Assembly (NCBI GenBank): GCA_033696785.1
Contig: GCA_033696785.1_4550.1
Strand: one strand, 5' to 3'
DNA length: 39,327 nucleotides
DNA from: a phage
Position 1 is the first letter of the stretch. Each line of letters opens with the position of its first letter. The translations under genes and the position numbers were made by a program. Under the pieces are notes generated by a model. The model saw only the letters and a list, made by a program, of their open reading frames with translations. It did no database searches and was not told where the DNA came from. Below are positions 12,779 through 32,724 of the stretch, in pieces.

Positions 12779-13224
12779 TTAACTCCTTTCTTCTTTGGGA
12801 TGAGTATACCTGAAGGCAGACGTACAGTCGCCTCTCGAAGCCACTCAACCGGGATAAACTTATCGGCATACTTATAGCCGTTCTTTTCGCACCATGCGCC
12901 ATACGTGGTCGGAGACCCTTTGTATAGCTTGGAGCGGGAACTTGAGAACACGAACCGTATGTCTAACTCTGGGTGCTGTTCTCGTACCAGAAGGTGCTTC
13001 TTACGGTCATCACTATCGAAGATACCTTTGGTCTCAACGATGATACCGTTAGGAAGGATAAAGTCGGGCGTGTAAAAATGATCGCTAGCAGGTACTACAT
13101 ACATAATTTTATATGCCTCATACTCAGCCCGTACCCCGTTCTTCTCCAGCCACTCTTGGTTCTTTGCTTCAAGCCCAGAGCGATACGCTCCCACTTTATG
13201 TCCTCGACTAATTGTTCTTGTCAC
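12775..13224 (-). CDS. Endonuclease I, Holliday-junction resolvase (T7 gp3 homolog)
   Basis: 149 aa with YTPDFILPNGIIVETKG and DRKKHLLVREQHPELDIRFVFSS. Confidence 0.95.
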   Translation of the reverse strand: MTRTISRGHKVGAYRSGLEAKNQEWLEKNGVRAEYEAYKIMYVVPASDHFYTPDFILPNGIIVETKGIFDSDDRKKHLLVREQHPELDIRFVFSSSRSKLYKGSPTTYGAWCEKNGYKYADKFIPVEWLREATVRLPSGILIPKKKGVK

Positions 13225-13657
13225 GCTTACGCCTCCAGTTAATAGCCTGTGGAGTAACTCCGAACATCTTAGCTAGCTCACTATTGGGCCGCGAGGACTT
13301 CAGGATGAACTCTACGTCTTCCTCGGTCAGCTTAGTCTTATTGTTAGCTTCTCCTATGAACACTGGAGGTTTCGACTTTCGCCCCCTCTCCATGCAGTCC
13401 CTCATGTTGTCCTTCTGCGTACCTAGTTCAAGGTGCTCAGGGTTACAGCAGCAGGGGTTGTCGCATTTATGTCTAACCAACATTCCATCAGGAATAGGAC
13501 CTATGAACTCCATGTATGACACACGATGTGCATAGTCCTGTTTCTGTCTTCCTATTGATATTCGACCGTATCCAGTAGGGAACCGGGAGCGTTGCCACTC
13601 CCAGCACCCGGAGGGAGAAACCTCAGAGTAATCCTCCAGTTTCTCTTTTAGATTCAT
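13208..13657 (-). CDS. HNH homing endonuclease (paralog 2)
   Basis: 149 aa with GCWEW..GYG and LVRHKCDNPCCCNPEHLELGT, plus C-terminal KLTEEDV helix. Confidence 0.88.
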   Translation of the reverse strand: MNLKEKLEDYSEVSPSGCWEWQRSRFPTGYGRISIGRQKQDYAHRVSYMEFIGPIPDGMLVRHKCDNPCCCNPEHLELGTQKDNMRDCMERGRKSKPPVFIGEANNKTKLTEEDVEFILKSSRPNSELAKMFGVTPQAINWRRKRDKNN

Positions 13658-14355
13658 TAGAAGTCGTAATCGCCACCAGAGTTGGAGTCGTCACCACCTT
13701 CGGAACCATCGTCACCAAAGTCATCAGACCCGAAGTCACCATCGGTTGACGCTTTGTAGCCGGTACCGAGGTCTTCATCATCGCCCCAGCCACCATCTCC
13801 ACCAGCACCATCACCTTTCCACTCCTTCAGTTCTACCAGAAGGCAGGACTCAAGCTGGAGCTTAACGCTTGCACCAGTCGCAGCGTTCCACTTGAACGGC
13901 AGGACTTTAAACTTGACCTTCAGCTTTGAGCCAGCGCCAATATTCGGGACGTCACGGATTAACTTAGCATCGGTGTCGTAGAACCGTAATACGATAGGCT
14001 CTGACTTACCATCCTTCAGGTAAGACGCGAAGCATTTAAACTTCAGGGTAACAGTACCGTCACCATTCTCAATCCAAGGCATGTCGCCTTCTCGTGGTTC
14101 AATAGGCTTCTTGCCACGCTGAACCTGAGGTGGGTTCTTCTCGTGGTCTGCGAGTGCTTTCGCATACGCATCGTCGTGAATCTTCTGTAAGACATCAATC
14201 ATCTTACGGACCTTCGGGTTGCTCAGGTCGAATGTCAGGTTAACCTTATGCTCACCACGCTCGTTAAACTTGGTGTCTGCTTTGTTCAGCCATGCGTAAG
14301 GCTCAACGATGCCAGCTACCGGAGTGGTGAAAGTCTTCAGTTGCTCTTTAGCCAT
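13657..14355 (-). CDS. Single-stranded DNA-binding protein (T7 gp2.5 homolog)
   Basis: 232 aa with GASVKLQLESCLLVEL and an acidic C-terminal tail ending DYDF (T7 ends DGDF). Confidence 0.95.
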   Translation of the reverse strand: MAKEQLKTFTTPVAGIVEPYAWLNKADTKFNERGEHKVNLTFDLSNPKVRKMIDVLQKIHDDAYAKALADHEKNPPQVQRGKKPIEPREGDMPWIENGDGTVTLKFKCFASYLKDGKSEPIVLRFYDTDAKLIRDVPNIGAGSKLKVKFKVLPFKWNAATGASVKLQLESCLLVELKEWKGDGAGGDGGWGDDEDLGTGYKASTDGDFGSDDFGDDGSEGGDDSNSGGDYDF

Positions 14356-17378: not shown

Positions 17379-20060
17379 TTAAGCGAATGCAAAGTCTGAA
17401 GACAAGATGTCTTCGATATTCAGTTTACCTTTCTTCGGAAGCTCAGGCAACTTGTCGCGCTGGCTCTCGTGAAGCTGGTATTCAAACTGCTCGTAGAAGT
17501 CAAGCAGCACATCGTTGTCGCGGTAGGTCTCGACCATCGTCTCACGGACACCACGGAACAGATACTCAGCGTCAGCCGGGATGGTCCCGAAGCTATCGTG
17601 AATCACTGCGAACGACATCACGCCATACTTGCGGTGAGTGTGGACTACAGTCTTGCGGAGGTGGCTACCATCTTGTGAGTGGACGAAGTTCGGGCTAATG
17701 CCTGACTCCTGCTTGTGCTTGTCAAGCTCTTTCTTCGTTCCTTTGTTGACTGTAGGCTGAAGGTTGAATGACCCTAAGAACATCAGGTTCAGACGAGTGG
17801 TATCCTTCTTGCGGTATTCCTGCCATACCGGGAAGCCATCAGGTGTTACCCAGTGAACCGGAAGGCATGGCTTAAGGATTTCTCCAGTCTTCTTGTCCTT
17901 CACTTCAGCAGCCAGCAGCTTGGCGGCACCTTGAAGCCACTTCATAGCGTCTACCGCAGCAACTACGGTCACACTCACAGCTTCCCAAATCATCTTAGCC
18001 ATGAAGCGAGACGCTTGGCTTGGCTCGGTGAACATAGCGCCAGACCCTGAGTCAATCGCTGGCATCACGATGTCCTCATAAACTTGGTCTGCGAAGCCAT
18101 ACTCTTTCGACCCATAGGCCAGAGTCATGACTGAACGCTTAGTGACCTTGCGTGACATACCGTAAGTCAGCCACTGCCGGGCCAGCTCTCGTGTCCCCAG
18201 CTTGAGACGTTCGGTAATCTCACCAGTTTTCTTGTCCTCGTGAGTTACCATCTCGTTGTCCGTGCCGTTAACCAGCAGGACTTTAAGCTCTTCCTCAATG
18301 CGGTCTGACACGATTCGGTAGATGTCTTGGACCTTACCGGAAGGCGTCAGGTTTACTGCATGTCCACCGATGTGATCACGAAGCATTGCGCTAAAGTGCT
18401 GAATCCCAGAGCAGGACCCATCGAATGCTATCGGCAGCGAGCAGGAGTAAGACAATCCGTGATGCATTACGCCAGCATACTCGAAGCAGAACGCTAGGAA
18501 GCAGAACGGAGAGTCTAACTTTCCCCACCACTCAATGCTGTCCATCGGTGCCTTAGCGGTAGCCATGATGTTGTCGTGGTTATCTTCCACCCACTTGATT
18601 CGCTCCTCGAAGGTTACTTTATCAATGCCCGCACAGTTTGCACCGTGGACCTTCAGCCATTTGAAACCATCAGCACCAATAGGCTTACCGACTGCCAGAG
18701 TCAGAAGACCCTTTTGCATGTCGTTACCCTGAGGGTTGAACATCGGCACAGCGTAGACGCGACCGCGCCAGTCCATGTTGTACGGAAACCAGATAGCCTT
18801 GAACTGAGAGAACTTGTTCGCTTGGTTAACGATAAAGCTCAGTGACAATCTACGTGACTGCCGGGCCTTCTCTCGGCGGTAGATACCAGCAGCAGCCTTC
18901 TTCCATGCCTTGAGTTCCTCTTCAGTCTCACCCGCATAGTCTTCAGGCTTCAGTGGCTCCATCTGAGGGATGTCGTCAATAGGCGTGTTGTTCAACTTCT
19001 CGACCATGTTCACCACGTCCAGAACCTTCTTGTTCACTTTCCAAGGTGTATTCTGGATGATGTTGACAGCGTCATAGACTTCAGGCATGTACACGTCTTC
19101 GTAACGTGCCACCGCAGACTTAGACCCTAAGCGAATCAATGGTAACGGTCTGCGACCTTTGGCCCAGTACCCACCGCCTACGACACCCGTCCACGGCTTA
19201 GGTGGAACGACGCAAGGCTGATAGACTGGTGCGATACCCGCAAGGCTGAATCCACGTTGTGCCATCTTCTTGACCCAGAAGCCTGACAGGTGGACCATCT
19301 CAACATCAGCCGCTGCATTGCCAGCACCATAACGCTTAAGCTCGACAAGTTGTGTTGACTGGATGACAATCTCAAGCATCTTGATGCCAACATGGACCGC
19401 CTCGGTCGGACTCCAAGTTCCCCACGCATCTTCCAGTTGACCCTGCTCCAGCATGGAGGCCTCAACCGCTTGCATGTAGGCTTTCTTGTAGGATGACCCA
19501 GCTCGCTTGTTCAGGTTCTCAGCTATCGCCTTCTTGAAGTGCTCCTTCTCCTTGTCACGGATGCGACCGAAGCGGATTTCGTCCTCAAGTGTGCGACCTA
19601 TCGCTGAGGCCATCGGTGTAATCGGTATCCCTTCAGGCTTGACCAGCTTGGAGAGGATGACCTTCAGTATAATAACTGCAGCAGACTCGCAAGAGATACG
19701 CAGAGAGCGGTCCTTGACGGCCTTCTCTTCAGTGCTCAACATGGTGAACGCTACGCTAGGACGAGAGGTTGACAGCTTCCCGTCTGGACCTTCATGCCAC
19801 TCCCTGACGGCTTGCGCAATCTTAGGGACCAGAGTCTGCATCAAAGGCTTGGCTACCTGATTGTCTGCCAGTTCCCCGCGCTCAGTCTGTCGCTCAAGGT
19901 TTTTGATGAAACGTCGCTCGCCTTCAGTGTATGCCTCATGCTCAAGCTGAAGCTGTTTGACTGCAAGATCTTGCCCGTAGTGGTCAGCCAGCAGGTTAAA
20001 CGGCTCAATGGCGTTCGACACATCAGAGAAGTCGTGTTTGTCAATAGAGATGACGCTCAT
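17379..20060 (-). CDS. Single-subunit DNA-dependent RNA polymerase (T7 gp1 homolog)
   Basis: 893 aa colinear with T7 RNAP, including catalytic motifs and C-terminal FAFA. Specificity-loop region reads FNLQPTVNKGTKKELDKHKQ (T7: FRLQPTINTNKDSEIDAHKQ). Confidence 0.98.
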   Translation of the reverse strand: MSVISIDKHDFSDVSNAIEPFNLLADHYGQDLAVKQLQLEHEAYTEGERRFIKNLERQTERGELADNQVAKPLMQTLVPKIAQAVREWHEGPDGKLSTSRPSVAFTMLSTEEKAVKDRSLRISCESAAVIILKVILSKLVKPEGIPITPMASAIGRTLEDEIRFGRIRDKEKEHFKKAIAENLNKRAGSSYKKAYMQAVEASMLEQGQLEDAWGTWSPTEAVHVGIKMLEIVIQSTQLVELKRYGAGNAAADVEMVHLSGFWVKKMAQRGFSLAGIAPVYQPCVVPPKPWTGVVGGGYWAKGRRPLPLIRLGSKSAVARYEDVYMPEVYDAVNIIQNTPWKVNKKVLDVVNMVEKLNNTPIDDIPQMEPLKPEDYAGETEEELKAWKKAAAGIYRREKARQSRRLSLSFIVNQANKFSQFKAIWFPYNMDWRGRVYAVPMFNPQGNDMQKGLLTLAVGKPIGADGFKWLKVHGANCAGIDKVTFEERIKWVEDNHDNIMATAKAPMDSIEWWGKLDSPFCFLAFCFEYAGVMHHGLSYSCSLPIAFDGSCSGIQHFSAMLRDHIGGHAVNLTPSGKVQDIYRIVSDRIEEELKVLLVNGTDNEMVTHEDKKTGEITERLKLGTRELARQWLTYGMSRKVTKRSVMTLAYGSKEYGFADQVYEDIVMPAIDSGSGAMFTEPSQASRFMAKMIWEAVSVTVVAAVDAMKWLQGAAKLLAAEVKDKKTGEILKPCLPVHWVTPDGFPVWQEYRKKDTTRLNLMFLGSFNLQPTVNKGTKKELDKHKQESGISPNFVHSQDGSHLRKTVVHTHRKYGVMSFAVIHDSFGTIPADAEYLFRGVRETMVETYRDNDVLLDFYEQFEYQLHESQRDKLPELPKKGKLNIEDILSSDFAFA

Positions 20061-20129: not shown

Positions 20130-20152
20130 GAGTCCTATAGTGATAGTTAAGT
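20130..20152 (-). promoter_or_regulatory. Phage RNAP promoter directly upstream of the RNAP gene
   Basis: Plus strand agtcctatagtgatagttaagt; +1 about 70 nt upstream of the RNAP start codon. Confidence 0.7.
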
Positions 20153-20957: not shown

Positions 20958-21130
20958 AGTTATCTGGTACATGTGTACTTGTCCTCATCGTGTAAACTGT
21001 CGTGAATACGTTTGCGGCCCTCATAGACCGCCTTCAGGTGACGCATAGTCGCATCATGTTTTAACTGCCCGGTCTTGACCATAATCCGGGCGTTAGTGAC
21101 GTGGTGCTGGCAGAGACCATAAGTTACCAT
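20958..21130 (-). CDS. Small early protein, about 57 aa
   Basis: Hand-translated [22 protein letters not shown]...; start overlaps the Ocr stop (TGATGG). Not in the ORF track. Confidence 0.3.
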
Positions 21131-21462
21131 CACTCGCAGCCCTCTTCAGCCTCAAACCAGACCACATGAGAGCTATTAGACACATCGTTATACAGTGCCT
21201 CATAAATGCGAGCTTGCAGTATATGCGTCACGTCCTTGGTCTCAGGCATCATCCCAGAGTCCTCAAACTCGTGGTCAATACCATCAGCAGCCATTACCGT
21301 GAAAATCTCGTGGTAGTAGTGCGGAACCATATCGTCTACGACTTCATGCAGCGCATCTTGGTAGTCATCGCCTTCAGCTATTTCGTCGTACTGAATGCGC
21401 TCGTTAAATGCTTCAACAGTTGCAGCCAGCAGCTCATAGTATGCGTTAGCGTTACGTTTCAT
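21130..21462 (-). CDS. ocr: Ocr, DNA-mimic anti-restriction protein (T7 gp0.3 homolog)
   Basis: 110 aa, acidic, with [43 protein letters not shown] matching T7 Ocr. Confidence 0.88.
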
Positions 21463-25257: not shown

Positions 25258-25521
25258 TTACTGCACTCCATATCCAGTGTCATTATCCTCCGTAGCGGAG
25301 AGCACCTTATCGTACTCTGCGTTCAGGGCCTCCATATCAGCGAGCGTCTTCTCGTCAACAGACACCTTGCTTAGCACGAAGTTGTGACGAGCCAGTAGCT
25401 TCTCAATGGCGTTGTAAAGCTGAGGTGAACGCTTAGAGTCATCCCGCAGGTCTTGCAGCATGAGTCGAGCACGTTCAGTATCTAGCATTAAGAGGAACTT
25501 CTCTAAGTCCATCTGCGTCAT
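25258..25521 (-). CDS. Terminase small subunit (T7 gp18 homolog)
   Basis: 87 aa with FLLMLDT and RSPQLYNAIEKLLARHNF matching T7 gp18. Confidence 0.88.
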   Translation of the reverse strand: MTQMDLEKFLLMLDTERARLMLQDLRDDSKRSPQLYNAIEKLLARHNFVLSKVSVDEKTLADMEALNAEYDKVLSATEDNDTGYGVQ

Positions 25522-25712
25522 GTTTTACCACCTCCTTTAATCGTTTTGTAGACTAGCACACCAATCTGGACAACGGTGTACGCGATAGCTGCAACGTAGA
25601 ACCATTCGTTCAGTGTGAGTCCGAAGAAGAACCTACTGGCACCATCAGCCGCAGCGGTCCCGACGATAGGAGAGGCTTTAAGGACTTCATTCTTGAAGTC
25701 TAACTCAATCAT
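25518..25712 (-). CDS. Class II holin (T7 gp17.5 homolog)
   Basis: 64 aa with IELDFKNEVLKASPIVGT and NEWFYVAAIAYTVVQIG, near-identical to T7 gp17.5. Confidence 0.88.
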   Translation of the reverse strand: MIELDFKNEVLKASPIVGTAAADGASRFFFGLTLNEWFYVAAIAYTVVQIGVLVYKTIKGGGKT

Positions 25713-25754: not shown

Positions 25755-28337
25755 TTACCTAAGCGCAATCCGCACACGCTTAATCACCACATCTCCCCCA
25801 AATGTACTAGGAGATGAATACCCGAACTTAATCTTAGACAGGAGCTCAGATAATAGGCTGGTAATCGCGTGGGTGTTGGTGTTCCCAATCTTGAAGCCAT
25901 CCACAGTACGGAGAGCTGCAACCTTGGCCTTTAAGTCCACATCATGGATTAACGTGTAGTCTCGACCAGCAGTCATAGGGAAAGACGCTGAGGACGTTAA
26001 GTCCGTTGCTTGACCTGAGCTGGAAGTCGTGGCTCGAAGCTGTAGACCTGCCGTCACCTGATACATAGAGCGGTCCCCTGTAGTGGCCTCACCGAGGGAT
26101 AAGACGTGCGCAGCTCCAGACGGTGCATACATCTCAATCTCTACAGTCAGACGCTTGAAGGACAGCCCCGGTTCCATGTAGTCTGCCATGTCGATATACG
26201 CCCGGTTGTTTGACCCGAAGCGCGCCCCTATAACCACGTTCTCAGAGTCCCGCACATATTCTATTGCACCGTTGATGAAGGTCAGCTTGGTGAACAGGTT
26301 GTATACGCCTCCAGATTTTGGACTCAACTTGTTGGACACCGCAAGTGTGCCAGACCTGAAGTCGGCCTCGATGTCGAACTTGAGGGGCTCTGGACCTGCT
26401 GAGTTGAACCAGTAGTCCAATGGCGGTGGATAGATTCTGGAGCTGGCCTTAGCAGTAGGGTGATTAAGACCGTTACCGCCGTCTATACTCGTACTGTAGA
26501 TGTCGTAATCCGTGAGAGACGCAGCTACCGGAACCTCTAATCCAGCCATGATGTCCACCCTAATCTGGCCTGTGCCTCCAATCCTCGGAGTGAACTTACC
26601 ACCGAAACGGATAATGTTTCCAGAAAATATAGGCTTTGTGTTCTTCCCAATGAACACCGTCAGTACATCACCATTAAGGGACATATGAATCTCTTGGTCG
26701 ACCACTGGCGCTGGTCCATCTCCTAACACGTTAAGCGTCATCCCCAGAGATGTCCCAGTGTAGTGCTGTAAACGCCACTTCCCTAACGCGCTTTTATATG
26801 AAAGGGTGACGAAGTTGTTCGTTAAAGACGATAGGTACATCTGGATGCCATTAACAAGGACAGCAGGGTCCACTACAGTGAGTCGTACCGAGTAGCACGG
26901 AACTTTCGACGTATAGGTATACGGGAGGTCTACCAGAGTCGATATTGTGGAGCGACGGAAGCTAAATACGCAGGGGTCTACCCCATCACGCAGAGACTTA
27001 AAGTGGCGATGGATGTCTATGAAGCTATACCCCGCAAACTTAGCATACGAACGGGTCCATCCAGCAATAGCGTCGCGTCCAGACTGTTGTTCCTCTGTGG
27101 CAGTGGCCGGGTTAACGGTAGACGGTAAGATGTTCGTGCAGAACACCAGCTCAGGTTCACTAGAGATAGACCGAAGTTCTTCGACCATCTTGTAGAACAC
27201 TGGCTGCTGGAAGTTACCTACGTCCCATCCCGGACCATCGTTCATGCCGAACGCGATGAAGATTACATCAGGCTTGGCCTCTTCGATATACGACATCCAG
27301 CGACGTGATCTATCAGTGAACCACGGGTATCCATCGCCAAGTCTTGCAGGCGGCTCATCACGGCCTAAGTCATAATATCGCATCCCGCCGATGGCTCGGT
27401 TGATAAACTCTGCCGACGGATTAGTCTCGTGGACCTTGCGTCGAAGATATGACTCAAATAGGGACGTGATGTTTGCGGTGTCGATGTTGTAGAAGCTGCT
27501 CAGTGAGTCCCCAACCAGAAGGACACGACAACCATGAGTCGCTAATCTGGCCTTAGCCTTAGCTGTAGCCGTACCGAAGGACATCGGAGAGTCTTCTGCG
27601 TGAAGTGACTCAGCTAGGGTCTGACCAGTGGCTGTTCCAATTCGCCCAGCACCAGAGGTCTGACCGAGGTCACTACGGAGACTAGCGTCGGCAACATTAA
27701 CCCACTTACCAGCGCCGACCCCACCAGCGGTTGCTGGAGTCGAACCGGGAGCAACTACCTTAGGTACAGCCCCATCCCAGCGGTAATAACTGAGGTCGGC
27801 ATCATTCCAGAGAACCTCGTTCCACTCTTTGATTGTGTACCCTAATGTGAAGGATCCAACGGGCGGACGAACCGTTACATAACCACCCACGCCCATGTTT
27901 CGAATCTTCTCAGCGAGACGTGCGGCCTCATTCTCAGAAGCCTTGGCTTGGTTAGCAGACGTCAGGGCTGAGTCAGCATATTCCTTCGCAAGGTCTGCTG
28001 TCTGGTCGCGGCCCTCTTCAGCGATGTGGATTGCCTGAAGTTCTGCGTTGGTCAGGTCACTTGCGGTCAGTACCGAACCATCACGAAAAGCAACCACTAA
28101 GTCTGTTGCCGTCTGCCTACGAACCTGAACAACGTCAAATCCAGTCTGAGACACTAAGACCTCTATGGTCGTCGGGTTCAGGAACCTATAGTCTTTATTT
28201 GGAGTCAGAACCTTATTAAGGGCCTGATTACTAGTACGTACTAGGGTGACTACCACAAAGGACCGAGACAAGTAGTCAAACGGTATCTTGAACTGAGTTG
28301 GCCCTGACGGGTAGTTATTAATCGTAATCTTAGCCAT
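25755..28337 (-). CDS. Tail fiber protein (T7 gp17 N-terminal adaptor fused to an SGNH/GDSL hydrolase-like domain and C-terminal beta-rich region)
   Basis: 860 aa; first ~150 aa match the T7 gp17 attachment domain (KIPFDYLSRSFVVVTL, YRF, LTASDL, IHIAEEGRD). Residues about 270-450 carry RVLLVGDSLSS, IFIAFGMNDGP and FIDIHRHF. Confidence 0.9.
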   Translation of the reverse strand: MAKITINNYPSGPTQFKIPFDYLSRSFVVVTLVRTSNQALNKVLTPNKDYRFLNPTTIEVLVSQTGFDVVQVRRQTATDLVVAFRDGSVLTASDLTNAELQAIHIAEEGRDQTADLAKEYADSALTSANQAKASENEAARLAEKIRNMGVGGYVTVRPPVGSFTLGYTIKEWNEVLWNDADLSYYRWDGAVPKVVAPGSTPATAGGVGAGKWVNVADASLRSDLGQTSGAGRIGTATGQTLAESLHAEDSPMSFGTATAKAKARLATHGCRVLLVGDSLSSFYNIDTANITSLFESYLRRKVHETNPSAEFINRAIGGMRYYDLGRDEPPARLGDGYPWFTDRSRRWMSYIEEAKPDVIFIAFGMNDGPGWDVGNFQQPVFYKMVEELRSISSEPELVFCTNILPSTVNPATATEEQQSGRDAIAGWTRSYAKFAGYSFIDIHRHFKSLRDGVDPCVFSFRRSTISTLVDLPYTYTSKVPCYSVRLTVVDPAVLVNGIQMYLSSLTNNFVTLSYKSALGKWRLQHYTGTSLGMTLNVLGDGPAPVVDQEIHMSLNGDVLTVFIGKNTKPIFSGNIIRFGGKFTPRIGGTGQIRVDIMAGLEVPVAASLTDYDIYSTSIDGGNGLNHPTAKASSRIYPPPLDYWFNSAGPEPLKFDIEADFRSGTLAVSNKLSPKSGGVYNLFTKLTFINGAIEYVRDSENVVIGARFGSNNRAYIDMADYMEPGLSFKRLTVEIEMYAPSGAAHVLSLGEATTGDRSMYQVTAGLQLRATTSSSGQATDLTSSASFPMTAGRDYTLIHDVDLKAKVAALRTVDGFKIGNTNTHAITSLLSELLSKIKFGYSSPSTFGGDVVIKRVRIALR

Positions 28338-28386
28338 TAGGCCTCCTTAAGTGTTTTAATTAAAGGGAGACCTCTGTAGCGCCTCC

Positions 28387-28409
28387 CGTTTCCTATAGTG
28401 ATAGTTTAG
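28387..28409 (-). promoter_or_regulatory. Phage RNAP promoter (phi17 equivalent)
   Basis: Plus strand tttcctatagtgatagtttagtc, overlapping the gp16 stop. Confidence 0.85.
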
Positions 28410-31400
28410 TCCTTGATGTGGATACCTTGCTCCTCAAACGTTCCAAGAAGCAGCTTCTGGGTAATCGGGTCGTTCGGGACAAGTTCGCGGAACGTGTTAT
28501 ACATCCCAGTCATGTAGTCTCGCTCATTGACACGAGTATCTGCCTTGAGGTAGCCAGCCAAGTTGTAAGCCGAAGCGCCAACGTTAGCAGCATATCCGAA
28601 AGCTGGAACCTGCTCAAGGAAGTTACCGACCACGTTCATCACCGGGTCACTTTTCGCAGCGCCATAGGGAATAGCACGTTCAGGCTTCTCTGTAGGCGAA
28701 CGAGGTAGAATAGACGAACGGAGCATCTTAGTGTCCTCATACCCAGCGATGCCCCCCAGAATGTTAGCTACCCCAAGTGGTCCACCAAGGTGTGAACTAC
28801 GTGATAGAGCTGCATATCCAATCATAGTCGGGTCCAGAGCTTGCTTGAGGTATTCACGGTCTCTACCATCCTGCATAGCGTAAGCCTTGACGTGAGCCTG
28901 AGCCATGTAGTAGATACCAGCCAGACCCATAGACATCACGGTAGATAGAGCAGCATCCATCGCTCGGTTGTTCTTCGTGGCGTTATAGAAGGTACGCATG
29001 GTTCGCCCATTGATGGACTTGATGACGAAGTTCTTAAACTGAAGGACAGTCTTAGCTAGAGGGCCATAAGCCTTGGCATCCATGTTAGACAGCTTATGAG
29101 GTCGTAGTAACGTTTCATCAGCGATGGTGTCACCCATACGCCACAGGTCCATAGCCCTTGGGTCCTGACTGAACGACTTCTTATCCTTGATGGTGTACTT
29201 CCCGTCTGGGCCACGAGTCACTGACTCACGGATTAGGGACTTAATGCCCTTCCACTGCTCGTCAGAGATACCAGCGGTCTTCAGCCATCGGTCATCGAAC
29301 TTACGCTTACTACCAGTCAGGCTATGCTCCACGATGTCAGACAGGAAGCCTTGACGTCCAGCATCTAACAGGTAGTTGGTCGTACCGTTGAGGAGTTTAG
29401 TGAACGGAGAGCGTACTGCAAGTTCACCAGTGTAATACTTGGCAGTCCCCAGAGCTGTAGCTGTACCACGACCGAGGTCACTGTAAGACCGCAGACGGTC
29501 AATGACATCCTGTTTAGACGGACGGATTGAGTCATCAAGTTCCTTACCGAAGAGAACATTGTGAAGGTCCTTAATCTCTGAGGCTCCGACCTTCTTGTTA
29601 CGGAAGGCTAGGTCACGGAACATCGGGACTCCATGTAGCAGCGCCCGAACGTTACCACGAGCCAGCATACCACCAATCTCCGTTAAGTTCTGAACACCCA
29701 TGTAGGCATTCTTAGCGAAGAACGATAGGTCTGTCATTGTGCGCATCACGGTAGCGAAGGCCGCATCATCAGCACCATCACGTCGAGCACGACCAGTTAG
29801 AATCTTCAGAGTGTCACGTAAGGTAGATACTTCACCTTTCAACTTACCGTCATCCCCAGCCTTGTTCATCATGGTCTCAACCAAGTCCTTCATGTCCTTC
29901 GTGGTTTTGCCTGTACCAGCCATGATAGCAATATCTCCATTAACTCGACGGTTGTAGGCAGGGACAATCTTGTCCATGTCCCACTCACGAAGGTTGTTGA
30001 CACTGAAGGTCTGACCGTTAGGTAGGACGATTGACATATCGCTATCGAACAGGTTACGAGCCTCAAGGAAGCTGTTGTTCTCCAGACCAACCAGACCGTT
30101 GATGTTCTCTTCCATTACGGATGAACGTTCGAACTGCTCGGTGTGAGAGATACCGTAAGCCTTATCGTTGGCGTACTTATCGACCGCAGCAGCAAGTCCC
30201 TCTGGAGTCAACGTAGGGTCAGCCTCTAAGAGTGCCTCGTCCACGCGTTTCTTGACTTCAGGTCGAGACGCATAGCTGGTAAGCCATGACTTCTTGATGG
30301 CCTCCTGCAACGCCTCTGGACTCCCAAGCTCCTTGATGTACAGCTCCTTCATCTGTTTGCTATACACATGAGGGACGTATGTTCCCTTGAAGTGGCTACC
30401 CGGAAAGATAGACTGAGCGTCTGGGCGACCAAACATAGCTGGGTTCTCCATCATCTCACGCTTGGCGTCGAACTGGTTCTTCAGCAGGTCATAGACTTTC
30501 AGTTCTCCCGGAGTCAGTTCAGCCTTCAGGTTTCCGCTGCCATCTTCGATAGCCATAGACACGCGCTGGTAGATGTCCTGACGGAATGCTCCAGAGTCTC
30601 GCCAGAATGCTGTCTGGAAGTACGGGTCCTTTAGTGCCTCAGTAACCGCATTGTCGATGTCGTTGTAGAACCGATGGTCCACAGCACGAAGTCTCTCGAA
30701 CACGTCTGACGCAGTGGTCCCGATTTTACCTGAGGCCCCAGACTGCATACCAGTCGGTGAACGCACTAAGTCAGCAGCTACTCCACGAATCTCAGGGTTC
30801 TCAGACCGAAGCAGCTTCAGACCAATCTCGGTAAGTCCACCAAGGTTCACACCAGCAGCGGCACGTTCCGGCTCAATCACTTCGTCAAAGACTTGACGTG
30901 TCTTAGGGTTCAGAGGGTTCTCACCAATCAGGATTGAACCATCTTCTAATCGTACACTTCCCGGCTCATTCGGCACGTCAGCGAACTTAACGCCTTGGTG
31001 ACTAAAGGTCTCCTCTCCTTCACGGATTGGCATACGCGACAGGTCTTGACCATCAACATTACGTGCAGTCTCGCGAGCTTCCAGACGTATAGCTGGACCA
31101 GCGAACTCGTTAGTGTTGCGACCTAAGGCTCTGCCTAGTCCATCAGCTATAGCAGTCATACCACCACCGAAGAGAGCACCGCCAATAATGGCCTCAGCAA
31201 CATGAGCGTCCCCACCAGCAACTGAGGTTCTAGCAATCTCGGATGCCCCAGCCAGAGCACCAGACTGAGCAGCCACAGTGAACATCTTGTTGATTAGCTT
31301 CCCACCTTTACCTACCTGCCCAGCAATAGGAACGTAGGTCAGAGGGTCCACGCCAGCACCAATCACACCAGCCGCCAGTTGAGCGCCAGTCCCAGCCTTT

Positions 31401-32293
31401 GCCTTCTCTTGGTCCAACTTCTGGTTCTCAAGCGCCAAGTTAATCAGCTCTGTCAGATTCTGAGGAGAACCGCCAGTAATGACTCCGTAATACTGAGGCA
31501 GAACCCCAGCGTTACGAATCTGGTCCAGCTCCTCACGAGACCACTTATGGTTGTTCCATCGGGTTGGGTTGAACACATCGCCAATGACATCCAGTGAGTC
31601 CTCAGTCTGACCAGCTCGTATAGCCACGCCGACCATAGAGTTCTTCACTTCAGCTTCTGTAGCCGCACCGAAACCGAACCACGTAGAGCGGTCCTCTCGT
31701 TCCTGCATGGTCTCTCCAGTAGCCTTATAGAACATCTCACCGAACGATTCGTTGGGAGCTTCAGGTGCTTGACCCTCAATGTTCAGACCAGCAGCGGTCG
31801 GAAGGTTCTCACCCAGAGCCACTTTAGGTTTAGCCTTGAGTCCTTCCGTGAGTGCGTCAAATACGGTAGCGCTTACTGGTGGAGTCTTTGGGCTGATACC
31901 GTTGAGTGCTCTTGCTACCCCCTGTTGGTAGACTTCAGGGTCGTACCGGGAGCCTGTCTCGTGGTAGCCTATAGCCTCAGACAGAGAGGCGAGGACGTCA
32001 GGGTTCGTCAGGTCGAGACTTTGTGTTGCTGGAATGCCGGTCGCAGCCACAACAGAGTTGATGTAGGACTGAGTGTCATTCTCATTAGGCGGCGCCCAGC
32101 GGTTGATAATCTTCTCGATGGAGTCATAACCTTGGCGACCGTAGCTTTGAAGGTTTTTAGCTAAAGCTCGTACCCCAGATTCAGGACTATCGAATATAAC
32201 GAATGCACCATCATCCCCTACTGCACCTTCCCATTGGTCTTTGGACTTACGGATATTTCCCGGATTTGAATTTCTTACTCCACGTGTTGCCAT
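28406..32293 (-). CDS. Internal virion protein D (T7 gp16 homolog) with a divergent N-terminal domain
   Basis: 1295 aa; body colinear with T7 gp16 (SPTGMQSGASGK, KGTYVPHVY, NNSFLEARNLFDSD, AYNRRVNGDIAIM). The first ~130 aa (NSNPGNIRKS...WEG) lack the T7 transglycosylase motif I recall. Confidence 0.93.
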   Translation of the reverse strand: MATRGVRNSNPGNIRKSKDQWEGAVGDDGAFVIFDSPESGVRALAKNLQSYGRQGYDSIEKIINRWAPPNENDTQSYINSVVAATGIPATQSLDLTNPDVLASLSEAIGYHETGSRYDPEVYQQGVARALNGISPKTPPVSATVFDALTEGLKAKPKVALGENLPTAAGLNIEGQAPEAPNESFGEMFYKATGETMQEREDRSTWFGFGAATEAEVKNSMVGVAIRAGQTEDSLDVIGDVFNPTRWNNHKWSREELDQIRNAGVLPQYYGVITGGSPQNLTELINLALENQKLDQEKAKAGTGAQLAAGVIGAGVDPLTYVPIAGQVGKGGKLINKMFTVAAQSGALAGASEIARTSVAGGDAHVAEAIIGGALFGGGMTAIADGLGRALGRNTNEFAGPAIRLEARETARNVDGQDLSRMPIREGEETFSHQGVKFADVPNEPGSVRLEDGSILIGENPLNPKTRQVFDEVIEPERAAAGVNLGGLTEIGLKLLRSENPEIRGVAADLVRSPTGMQSGASGKIGTTASDVFERLRAVDHRFYNDIDNAVTEALKDPYFQTAFWRDSGAFRQDIYQRVSMAIEDGSGNLKAELTPGELKVYDLLKNQFDAKREMMENPAMFGRPDAQSIFPGSHFKGTYVPHVYSKQMKELYIKELGSPEALQEAIKKSWLTSYASRPEVKKRVDEALLEADPTLTPEGLAAAVDKYANDKAYGISHTEQFERSSVMEENINGLVGLENNSFLEARNLFDSDMSIVLPNGQTFSVNNLREWDMDKIVPAYNRRVNGDIAIMAGTGKTTKDMKDLVETMMNKAGDDGKLKGEVSTLRDTLKILTGRARRDGADDAAFATVMRTMTDLSFFAKNAYMGVQNLTEIGGMLARGNVRALLHGVPMFRDLAFRNKKVGASEIKDLHNVLFGKELDDSIRPSKQDVIDRLRSYSDLGRGTATALGTAKYYTGELAVRSPFTKLLNGTTNYLLDAGRQGFLSDIVEHSLTGSKRKFDDRWLKTAGISDEQWKGIKSLIRESVTRGPDGKYTIKDKKSFSQDPRAMDLWRMGDTIADETLLRPHKLSNMDAKAYGPLAKTVLQFKNFVIKSINGRTMRTFYNATKNNRAMDAALSTVMSMGLAGIYYMAQAHVKAYAMQDGRDREYLKQALDPTMIGYAALSRSSHLGGPLGVANILGGIAGYEDTKMLRSSILPRSPTEKPERAIPYGAAKSDPVMNVVGNFLEQVPAFGYAANVGASAYNLAGYLKADTRVNERDYMTGMYNTFRELVPNDPITQKLLLGTFEEQGIHIKD

Positions 32294-32724
32294 GTCTTTC
32301 TCCTCAAGATATTTCTAATAGAAACCGTACTCACTCCATATCGTTCCGCTAAGAGTGAAACCTTTAGGCCGCTGGACCTTATGTCTCTCACGATTTCTTC
32401 AGTGAGCTTAGATACTCCTATGGAGCATCCTGACGCTTGGCGACCTCTAGTCACCTTATCCTTTATGTTGTCAGCTTGGGTGCCGACTTCAAGGTGGCTT
32501 GGGTTTATACAGGACGGGTTGTCGCATTTATGACGAACAACGTATCCATCGGGTATAGGACCATTAGCAAGCTCGTAGGCAAGTCTATGTGCTCCATATT
32601 TCACCCTATTAATCATTATCCTTCCATAGCCGGATTTATCAATGCTTCCGGTGAATCGGATACAGCCAGACTCTTCGGCTACTGACAGTTCTGCCAGTCT
32701 CTCACTGGCTGTCCCGTTCTTCAT
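32275..32724 (-). CDS. HNH homing endonuclease (paralog 3) in the structural module
   Basis: 149 aa with GCIRF..GYG and YVVRHKCDNPSCINPSHLEVGT, between the gp15 and gp16 genes. Confidence 0.88.
   Translation of the reverse strand: MKNGTASERLAELSVAEESGCIRFTGSIDKSGYGRIMINRVKYGAHRLAYELANGPIPDGYVVRHKCDNPSCINPSHLEVGTQADNIKDKVTRGRQASGCSIGVSKLTEEIVRDIRSSGLKVSLLAERYGVSTVSIRNILRRKTWQHVE

What the first reader, a model, noticed from the sequence alone, without database searches (positions are those of the whole stretch)
25755..28337. Tail fiber carries an SGNH/GDSL esterase-like domain in place of the T7 receptor-binding tip
Only the first ~150 residues match the T7 gp17 attachment domain. Residues about 270-450 (nt about 26990-27530) carry a GDSL block (RVLLVGDSLSS), a G.ND block (IFIAFGMNDGP) and a D..H pair (FIDIHRHF), the layout of SGNH hydrolases; about 400 further residues are beta-rich. 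That suggests an enzymatic fiber that deacetylates or otherwise modifies a surface polysaccharide during adsorption, and it would set host range.
Basis: partly seen in the sequence, partly recalled or inferred. Interest (0 to 1): 0.75.

Follow-up and report, generated by a model that had tools for sequence, protein, structure and literature searches.

The report
Esterase tailspike of a T7-like coliphage

Summary

One detail is wrong. 'FIDIHRHF' is the beta5 strand and following helix, not block V. H443 is Asn in 9/37 relatives, including active Possum gp66. The invariant histidine is H626 ('GGNGLNHPT'), about 180 residues downstream. The SGNH fold is split (267-452 plus 604-650) by an inserted ConA/LamG-like beta-sandwich (453-603), and a second lectin-like domain follows (651-860). 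The canonical Asp position is Gly623, so the site is probably a Ser-His dyad.

The same architecture is already known in T7-like phages, including Vi-specific Kayfunaviruses (SASA esterase) and Pectobacterium Q19/PP47/PP81. Near-identical proteins are in databases. I rate it a new member of a known kind, of modest interest. The substrate is unknown.

The parts
25755..28337 (-). Gene 17 homologue: 860-aa tail fibre/spike (stop codon at 25755-25757)
   Evidence: ORF list. Lies between gp16 (28406-32293) and holin (25518-25712). An identical gene with the same neighbours is found in L004.
28388..28404 (-). Phage-RNAP promoter-like site CTATCACTATAGGAAAC immediately upstream of the fibre gene (phi17-like)
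   Evidence: One of 11 sites of this consensus, all on the minus strand, against 0.07 expected by chance. Sequence read.
28342..28348 (-). Shine-Dalgarno AAGGAGG, 4 nt upstream of the ATG (which begins at 28337)
   Evidence: Sequence read directly.
27951..28298 (-). Residues 14-129: T7 gp17 N-terminal tail-attachment domain
   Evidence: Pfam PF03906, E 4.4e-21. PDB sequence hits include T7 gp17 7boz and 8e4g. 61-66% identical to other Kayfunavirus gp17 N-termini.
27687..27863 (-). Residues 159-217: Tail_spike_N module (the D2-type module of CBA120 TSPs and G7C gp63.1). The module junction lies just after it.
   Evidence: Pfam PF18668, E 2.8e-19. PDB hits 4oj5, 5w6h and 4qnl cover this stretch. 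Homology to the Vi Kayfunavirus gp17 ends at residue 217.
26982..27539 (-). Residues 267-452: N-terminal part of the SGNH esterase fold (beta1-beta5). Block I Ser278 (nt 27504-27506), block II Gly318 (27384-27386), block III Asn366 (27240-27242).
26529..26981 (-). Residues 453-603: ConA/LamG-like beta-sandwich inserted into the SGNH fold
   Evidence: All-beta in the model. Foldseek hits to tandem LG/galectin pairs span about 410-470 columns, and BFVD hits are ConA-like/LamG proteins. Diverges faster than the SGNH parts. No Pfam hit when tested alone.
26388..26528 (-). Residues 604-650: C-terminal part of the SGNH fold, with block V 'GGNGLNHPT'. Catalytic His626 (nt 26460-26462); Gly623 at the canonical Asp position (26469-26471).
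   Evidence: G621, N622, N625 and H626 are invariant in 37/37. The Pfam match extends to 174/178 only when this segment is joined. H626-P aligns with TesA H157-P. The helix starts 3 residues after His.
25758..26387 (-). Residues 651-860: C-terminal ConA/LamG-like beta-sandwich (distal domain, probably glycan binding and/or trimer stabilisation)
   Evidence: DSSP. Fold hits. Least conserved domain, and replaced in distant homologues such as Possum gp66.

Best explanation
This is the receptor-binding tailspike of a Kayfunavirus (T7-like E. coli phage). The N-terminal approximately 150 residues dock it to the tail, as T7 gp17 does. A Tail_spike_N module and a short neck follow. The distal 600 residues form an enzymatic head. 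That head is an SGNH carbohydrate esterase whose fold is split by an embedded lectin-like beta-sandwich and is followed by a second lectin-like domain. The active site is Ser278 (nucleophile), Gly318 and Asn366 (oxyanion hole) and His626 (base). The canonical Asp position is Gly623, so the site is probably a Ser-His dyad, as in many CE2 esterases. The most likely mechanism is as follows. The lectin-like domains bind an O-acetylated surface polysaccharide (O-antigen or capsule). The esterase removes the O-acetyl groups without cutting the backbone. Repeated bind, deacetylate and release cycles bring the virion to the outer membrane, where the T7-type ejection machinery fires. Host range then depends on that acetylated glycan. 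What is shown here: the domain composition, the fold, the conserved catalytic residues, and homology to a proven deacetylase. What is inferred: the activity itself, the substrate, trimer formation, and the role in adsorption.
Against: No activity or substrate data exist for this protein or for any close (>50% identical) relative. The canonical block V Asp is missing, which could lower or change activity. The closest annotated phage relative, anhysbys, was propagated on O-antigen-less K-12, so an O-antigen substrate is not guaranteed. The trimeric state was not modelled.
Confidence: 0.8

Rival explanations
1. One reading: a contiguous SGNH domain at 270-450 whose triad is Ser278 with the Asp/His of 'FIDIHRHF' (D441 with H443 or H445).
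For: The motif is present. D441 is invariant and H443 is His in 28/37 homologues.
Against: H443 is Asn in 9/37 homologues, including the experimentally active Possum gp66, and H445 is variable. The spacing is DxH / DxxxH, not DxxH. The Pfam match ends at profile 155/178, before block V. 'IDI' occupies strand beta5 in the model. H626 is invariant and matches block V.
Confidence: 0.03
2. A binding-only spike: the SGNH fold is kept as a scaffold or lectin and no longer catalyses anything.
For: The canonical Asp of block V is replaced by Gly623. Two lectin-like domains could suffice for binding.
Against: Ser, Gly, Asn and His are invariant or nearly so across 37 homologues down to 22% identity. 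That argues for purifying selection on catalysis. Asp-less Ser-His dyads are active in CE2 esterases (PMC9487903). Possum gp66, which has the same GGNGINHP block (Gly at the Asp position), is active.
Confidence: 0.06
3. A virion-borne lipase or deacylase acting on lipid A, phospholipid or another acyl ester of the outer membrane, rather than an O-acetyl esterase of a polysaccharide.
For: The GDSL/SGNH superfamily includes lipases and lysophospholipases. TesA and PlaA are among the structural neighbours.
Against: The best structural neighbours are carbohydrate esterases (RiCE17, Ape1, acetyl-xylan esterases) and esterase tailspikes. The catalytic domain is flanked by ConA/LamG-like carbohydrate-type modules. 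The sequence-homologous Possum gp66 removes 2-O-acetyl from rhamnose in the O-polysaccharide.
Confidence: 0.05
4. The esterase targets a conserved acetylated glycan (ECA, colanic acid or an N4-glycan-receptor-like polymer) rather than a strain-specific O- or K-antigen.
For: A 52%-identical module sits in the tail-fibre cluster of Phapecoctavirus anhysbys, which was isolated on O-antigen-less K-12 MG1655. The idea of 'key polysaccharides' is discussed in PMC10743462.
Against: The lectin-like domains diverge quickly between relatives (33-50% identity), as expected for variable glycans. Phapecoctaviruses carry several fibres, so the module need not act on K-12. No direct data are available.
Confidence: 0.1

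Closest known systems
Pectobacterium phage Possum gp66 (Schitoviridae, Cbunavirus), polysaccharide-deacetylating tail fibre
   Same: It is homologous by sequence over residues 264-640: the SGNH N-part, the inserted beta-sandwich and the 'GGNG[LI]NHP' block V (26% identity, E 5e-29; Foldseek E 1e-33 over 576 columns). It also carries a Tail_spike_N module. It is experimentally an O-acetyl esterase of the host O-polysaccharide.
   Different: Its virion adaptor is different (an N4-like phage, attached through gp67). Its C-terminal domain is unrelated. Overall identity is only 26%. Its host is Pectobacterium.
E. coli phage G7C gp63.1 esterase tailspike (PDB 4QNL)
   Different: HMMER detects no sequence similarity outside the Tail_spike_N module. 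G7C is N4-like and attaches the spike through gp66. Whether gp63.1 has the same insertion point could not be checked here.
Vi-capsule-specific Kayfunaviruses of S. Typhi (e.g. CHRF_10022, species Kayfunavirus SH4); 'conserved acetyl esterase domain' of Pickard et al. 2010
   Same: They belong to the same genus and the gene is in the same position. The N-terminal architecture is the same (T7_tail plus Tail_spike_N, 61% identical over residues 5-217). The module junction is the same, and an acetylesterase head follows it.
   Different: Their esterase is of the SASA family (PF03629), not GDSL_2. There is no detectable sequence similarity after residue 217. The protein is shorter (671 aa).
Pectobacterium Studiervirinae phages Q19, PP47 and PP81: tail spikes with a T7-like N-domain and an SGNH domain (PMC7693777)
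   Same: The same concept is already published: a T7 gp17 N-terminal part fused to a G7C-like SGNH hydrolase, acquired by horizontal transfer.
   Different: Not detected by tblastn with residues 230-860 at E<=1e-5, so they are a different SGNH lineage. Their activity was predicted rather than measured.
Bacterial carbohydrate esterases RiCE17 (6HFZ), NmApe1 (4K3U/8GLD) and the CE2 family
   Different: They are not virion proteins. Sequence identity is 9-16%. The position of the accessory domain differs: here the insertion lies between beta5 and block V.

Membership tests
SGNH/GDSL hydrolase superfamily | Block I GDS(L) with the nucleophilic Ser | tested here: met
   G276-D277-S278-L279 is invariant in 37/37 homologues. 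It aligns with TesA GDSLS and Ser10.
SGNH/GDSL hydrolase superfamily | Block II Gly (oxyanion hole) | tested here: met
   'NRAIGG': N313 is invariant and G318 is present in 36/37. It aligns with TesA 'NASISG' and Gly44.
SGNH/GDSL hydrolase superfamily | Block III GxND with the oxyanion Asn | tested here: met
   G364-M-N366-D367 is invariant. It aligns with TesA GGND and Asn73.
SGNH/GDSL hydrolase superfamily | Block V catalytic His | tested here: met
H626 is invariant in 37/37. The Pfam match reaches block V only when residues 604-655 or 619-655 are joined.
SGNH/GDSL hydrolase superfamily | Block V Asp three residues before the His (DxxH) | tested here: not met
   Position 623 is Gly here and in 30/37 relatives, and Asp in 5/37. 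Asp-less dyads are accepted members of the family (CE2).
SGNH/GDSL hydrolase superfamily | Three-layer alpha/beta/alpha fold with five parallel strands | tested here: met
SGNH/GDSL hydrolase superfamily | Ser-His within hydrogen-bond distance; esterase activity | not testable with these tools
T7 gp17-type tail fibre | N-terminal tail-attachment domain (PF03906) | tested here: met
   Residues 14-129, E 4.4e-21. PDB hits to T7 gp17.
T7 gp17-type tail fibre | T7-type shaft and C-terminal receptor-binding tip | tested here: not met
   T7 gp17 (7boz, 553 aa) matches only query residues 14-119. The rest consists of Tail_spike_N, SGNH and lectin-like domains.
Esterase tailspikes of the Possum gp66 type (PHROG 17220) | Sequence homology across the SGNH N-part, the inserted beta-sandwich and the GGNGxNHP block | tested here: met
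   BLASTP E 5e-29 over residues 264-640. PHROG 17220 matches at E 1.7e-141 over residues 218-857.
Esterase tailspikes of the Possum gp66 type (PHROG 17220) | Removal of O-acetyl groups from the host polysaccharide | not testable with these tools
   Shown for Possum gp66 by NMR. Not shown for this protein.
Vi-phage acetyl esterase tail spikes (SASA, PF03629) | SASA-family catalytic domain | tested here: not met
   The window protein has no PF03629 match. The Vi Kayfunavirus gp17 has one. Similarity between the two ends at residue 217.

The most novel reading that the evidence does not exclude
The module at residues 218-860 may represent a structurally undescribed subclass of phage receptor-modifying enzymes. 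In this subclass a ConA/LamG-like lectin domain is inserted into the SGNH esterase fold between strand beta5 and block V, and the block V Asp is lost. The unit moves as a single esterase-lectin cassette between podoviruses (Kayfunavirus, N4-like), myoviruses (Phapecoctavirus) and siphovirus-type prophages of Enterobacteria and Aeromonas. Its substrate might be an acetylated glycan other than O-antigen, because a 52%-identical copy sits in a phage grown on O-antigen-less K-12.
Probability: 0.15. Interest if true: 0.5.

Novelty: new member of a known kind. Interest (0 to 1): 0.3.

Why it matters
The spike very probably decides which E. coli strains this phage can infect, through an O-acetylated surface glycan. 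Resistance could therefore arise by simple loss of an acetyltransferase. That matters for host-range prediction and for the design of phage cocktails.

The corrected active-site map is Ser278, Gly318, Asn366 and His626, with no block V Asp and an embedded lectin domain. It tells experimenters which residues to mutate. It also shows that domain annotations which stop at residue 450 miss a quarter of the catalytic fold.

The 92% identity of the module to an N4-like phage's spike documents recent exchange of receptor-binding enzymes between phage families. None of this changes current understanding of phage adsorption.

Tried and rejected
- **PDB sequence searches.** Searches with the whole protein, the family profile A1 and the spliced profile A2 matched solved tailspikes only through the N-terminal modules. 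They matched SGNH enzymes only through blocks I-III and never reached block V.
- **hhalign against TesA.** hhalign of A2 against TesA covered only blocks I-III. hmmalign was uninformative. Only MAFFT L-INS-i placed H626 on His157.
- **Is invariant D451 the displaced block V Asp?** I tested whether 'RDGV', just before the insertion, supplies it, using Pfam scores on deletion constructs. The scores differ by 3 bits or less, so this is inconclusive. The five relatives with D at position 623 argue for 623 as the canonical position.
- **Pfam on the two beta-sandwich domains alone.** No hit, even at E 10.
- **Megablast of the module against 5,426 complete E. coli genomes.** No match. The more sensitive blastn found only two prophage copies, at 67% identity.
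- **Literature.** A search for the nearest phage's host name 'BDX03' returned nothing. Prokhorov 2017 (G7C gp63.1) and Pickard 2010 (Vi phages) are not held, so their contents are cited only through papers that describe them.
- **RNA structure upstream of the gene.** The hairpin between the promoter and the SD is not better than shuffled sequence (z -0.6) and was dropped.
- **Second structure-prediction job.** Not used, because coordinates are not returned and it could not settle the geometry.

Full report
**Context.** The window is a circularly permuted genome of a T7-like E. coli phage of the genus Kayfunavirus. All genes lie on the minus strand. The backbone is 93-95% identical to many Kayfunaviruses. 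The nearest is BDX03P1 (OZ035794), at 96.4% nucleotide and 98.7% amino-acid identity over the fibre gene. The same genome also occurs as a 39.4-kb contig in an E. coli isolate assembly.

The finding's ORF (25755-28337, minus strand, 860 aa) sits between the gp16 homologue (28406-32293) and the holin (25518-25712). That is the gene-17 position. It has its own phage-polymerase promoter-like site (28388-28404). This is one of 11 such sites in the window, against 0.07 expected by chance. A strong Shine-Dalgarno lies just upstream of the ATG.

**Checking the observation.** Pfam gives four matches:
- Phage_T7_tail, residues 14-129
- Tail_spike_N, residues 159-217
- Lipase_GDSL_2, residues 275-448 (E 1.6e-13)
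- Lipase_GDSL, residues 272-449

PHROG 17220, labelled 'unknown function', covers residues 218-857 at E 1.7e-141. The exact protein is already in NCBI and UniRef, as a hypothetical protein in the former and as a 'phage tail fiber domain-containing protein' in the latter. Relatives there are named SGNH/GDSL hydrolase family proteins.

**Fold.** I built an AlphaFold2 model of residues 218-860 from an alignment of 37 homologues. It is confident (mean pLDDT 88, pTM 0.82). Its DSSP string shows four parts:
- a five-strand alpha/beta unit (strands 271-276, 310-313, 358-362, 396-400, 438-440)
- an all-beta domain (453-603)
- a loop-and-helix segment (604-650)
- a second all-beta domain (654-859)

**The catalytic histidine.** In the 37-sequence alignment the following are conserved:
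- G276, D277 and S278 are invariant.
- N313 is invariant, and G318 is present in 36/37.
- G364, M365, N366 and D367 are invariant.
- G621, N622, N625 and H626 are invariant.

H443 is Asn in 9 sequences, and H445 is almost always something else. Possum gp66, an experimentally active deacetylase, has Asn at the position of H443.

The Pfam matches in this protein and in three relatives all stop at profile position about 155 of 178, before block V. I excised the inserted domain in silico. The matches then extended to 174/178 (PF13472) and 203-204/208 (PF00657), and the scores rose by 3-9 bits. A construct lacking the His-Pro segment and an unspliced control did not extend.

E. coli TesA, whose sequence I verified against PDB 1IVN, aligns S10, G44 and N73 with S278, G318 and N366 by hhalign. 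By MAFFT it also aligns H157-P with H626-P. His626 sits three residues before a helix, as the block V His does in canonical enzymes.

The position three residues before the His, where the family's Asp normally sits, is Gly623 here and in 30/37 relatives. Five relatives have the canonical D-I-N-H. The active site is therefore Ser278, Gly318, Asn366 and His626, probably working as a dyad. This is documented for many CE2 esterases (PMC9487903). 'FIDIHRHF' is strand beta5 plus the start of the next helix.

I could not measure the Ser-His distance because model coordinates are not exposed. Invariant D451 and D454 at the insertion junction remain possible surrogate acids.

**Relatives and mobility.** The two SGNH segments are conserved together (51-75% identity among close relatives). 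Both lectin-like domains diverge faster (33-50%). In distant homologues the C-terminal domain is replaced altogether.

The module is attached to different virion adaptors in different phage types:
- T7-type adaptor in this phage, and in P0025.
- A 1097-aa spike of a 72-kb N4-like phage, at 92% identity.
- The fibre cluster of Phapecoctavirus anhysbys, at 52% identity.
- Downstream of the TipJ tail-tip protein in an E. coli siphovirus-type prophage.
- Tail-collar fibres of an Aeromonas prophage.

In the window itself the flanks of gene 17 are about 95% identical to many Kayfunaviruses, while the gene is replaced. The N-terminal 230 residues are only about 64% identical to other Kayfunavirus spikes.

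**How it most likely works.** This rests on homology and on established work with esterase tailspikes. G7C gp63.1 deacetylates the O-antigen. That activity is essential for infection, and acetylation-deficient host mutants are resistant (PMC10743462). Possum gp66 removes a 2-O-acetyl from rhamnose in the O-polysaccharide (PMC9569702). Moo19 and B2 spikes hydrolyse pNP-acetate (PMC11654681).

I infer that six trimeric spikes bind an O-acetylated O-antigen or capsule through the lectin-like domains. They then strip the acetyl groups without cutting the chain. By repeated binding and release they bring the tail to the outer membrane. Activity, substrate and trimer formation are inferred, not shown.

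Rival readings are each given 0.1 or less.

**Comparison with what is known.** T7-like phages with an SGNH spike are already published, namely Pectobacterium Q19, PP47 and PP81 (PMC7693777). Within Kayfunavirus itself, the Vi-specific S. Typhi phages carry T7_tail plus Tail_spike_N plus a SASA acetylesterase. The junction is at the same residue (about 217), and the N-terminus is 61% identical to this protein.

The window's spike is therefore a new member of a known kind. It uses a different esterase lineage, the Possum gp66 type (PHROG 17220). Two features may not have been described for phage spikes: the split fold with an embedded lectin domain, and the missing block V Asp. I could not check them against the G7C, Moo19 or B2 structures. 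Interest is modest (0.3).

Noticed in passing
window 20130-20146 (minus strand): A phage-RNAP promoter-like site (CTATCACTATAGGACTC) lies in the 97-nt gap just upstream of the phage RNA polymerase gene (17379-20060). It could allow the polymerase to amplify its own transcription. The other ten sites of the same consensus start at 1321, 2327, 5148, 9270, 14396, 15384, 17052, 22821, 28388 and 36103, all on the minus strand.
   Followed up: partly
window 32275-32724 and 13208-13657 (minus strand): There are two HNH_3 homing-endonuclease ORFs of 149 aa each (Pfam E 2e-17 and 1e-16). The first is wedged between the gp15 and gp16 homologues and overlaps the start of gp16. The second lies between the gp2.5-position gene (13657-14355; annotated as ssDNA-binding protein in the related phage CHRF_10022) and endonuclease I.
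   Followed up: partly
L006 8001-11294 (Logan SRR31021117, 72-kb contig): An N4-like phage (Phage_N4_Gp1/Gp2, SU10 portal) carries a 1097-aa tailspike. Its C-terminal 643 residues are 92% identical to residues 218-860 of the window protein. This indicates recent exchange of the esterase-lectin cassette between phage families. A second Tail_spike_N protein (560 aa) follows it, as in G7C.
   Followed up: partly
L005 3798-5813 (Salmonella Typhi Kayfunavirus CHRF_10022, PQ336901): Its gene-17 product is T7_tail plus Tail_spike_N plus a SASA acetylesterase. It is 61% identical to the window protein up to residue 217 and unrelated after that. This pinpoints the module junction used for cassette swaps in this genus.
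   Followed up: yes
L003 8421-10769 (E. coli FDAARGOS_1250 chromosome): A 782-aa 'GDSL-type esterase/lipase' with the same module (67% nucleotide identity) sits directly downstream of the TipJ host-specificity protein of a siphovirus-type prophage next to yciB/ompW.
   Followed up: partly
window 21130-21462 (minus strand): An Ocr DNA-mimic anti-restriction gene lies in the early region (Pfam E 1e-30).
   Followed up: no
window residues 441-454 of the fibre (nt 26976-27017): D441, R444, D451, G452 and D454 are invariant in all 37 homologues, although they are not canonical SGNH catalytic residues. They flank the N-terminal junction of the inserted lectin domain, and their role is unexplained. 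They could form a structural hinge, bind metal, or act as a surrogate acid.
   Followed up: partly
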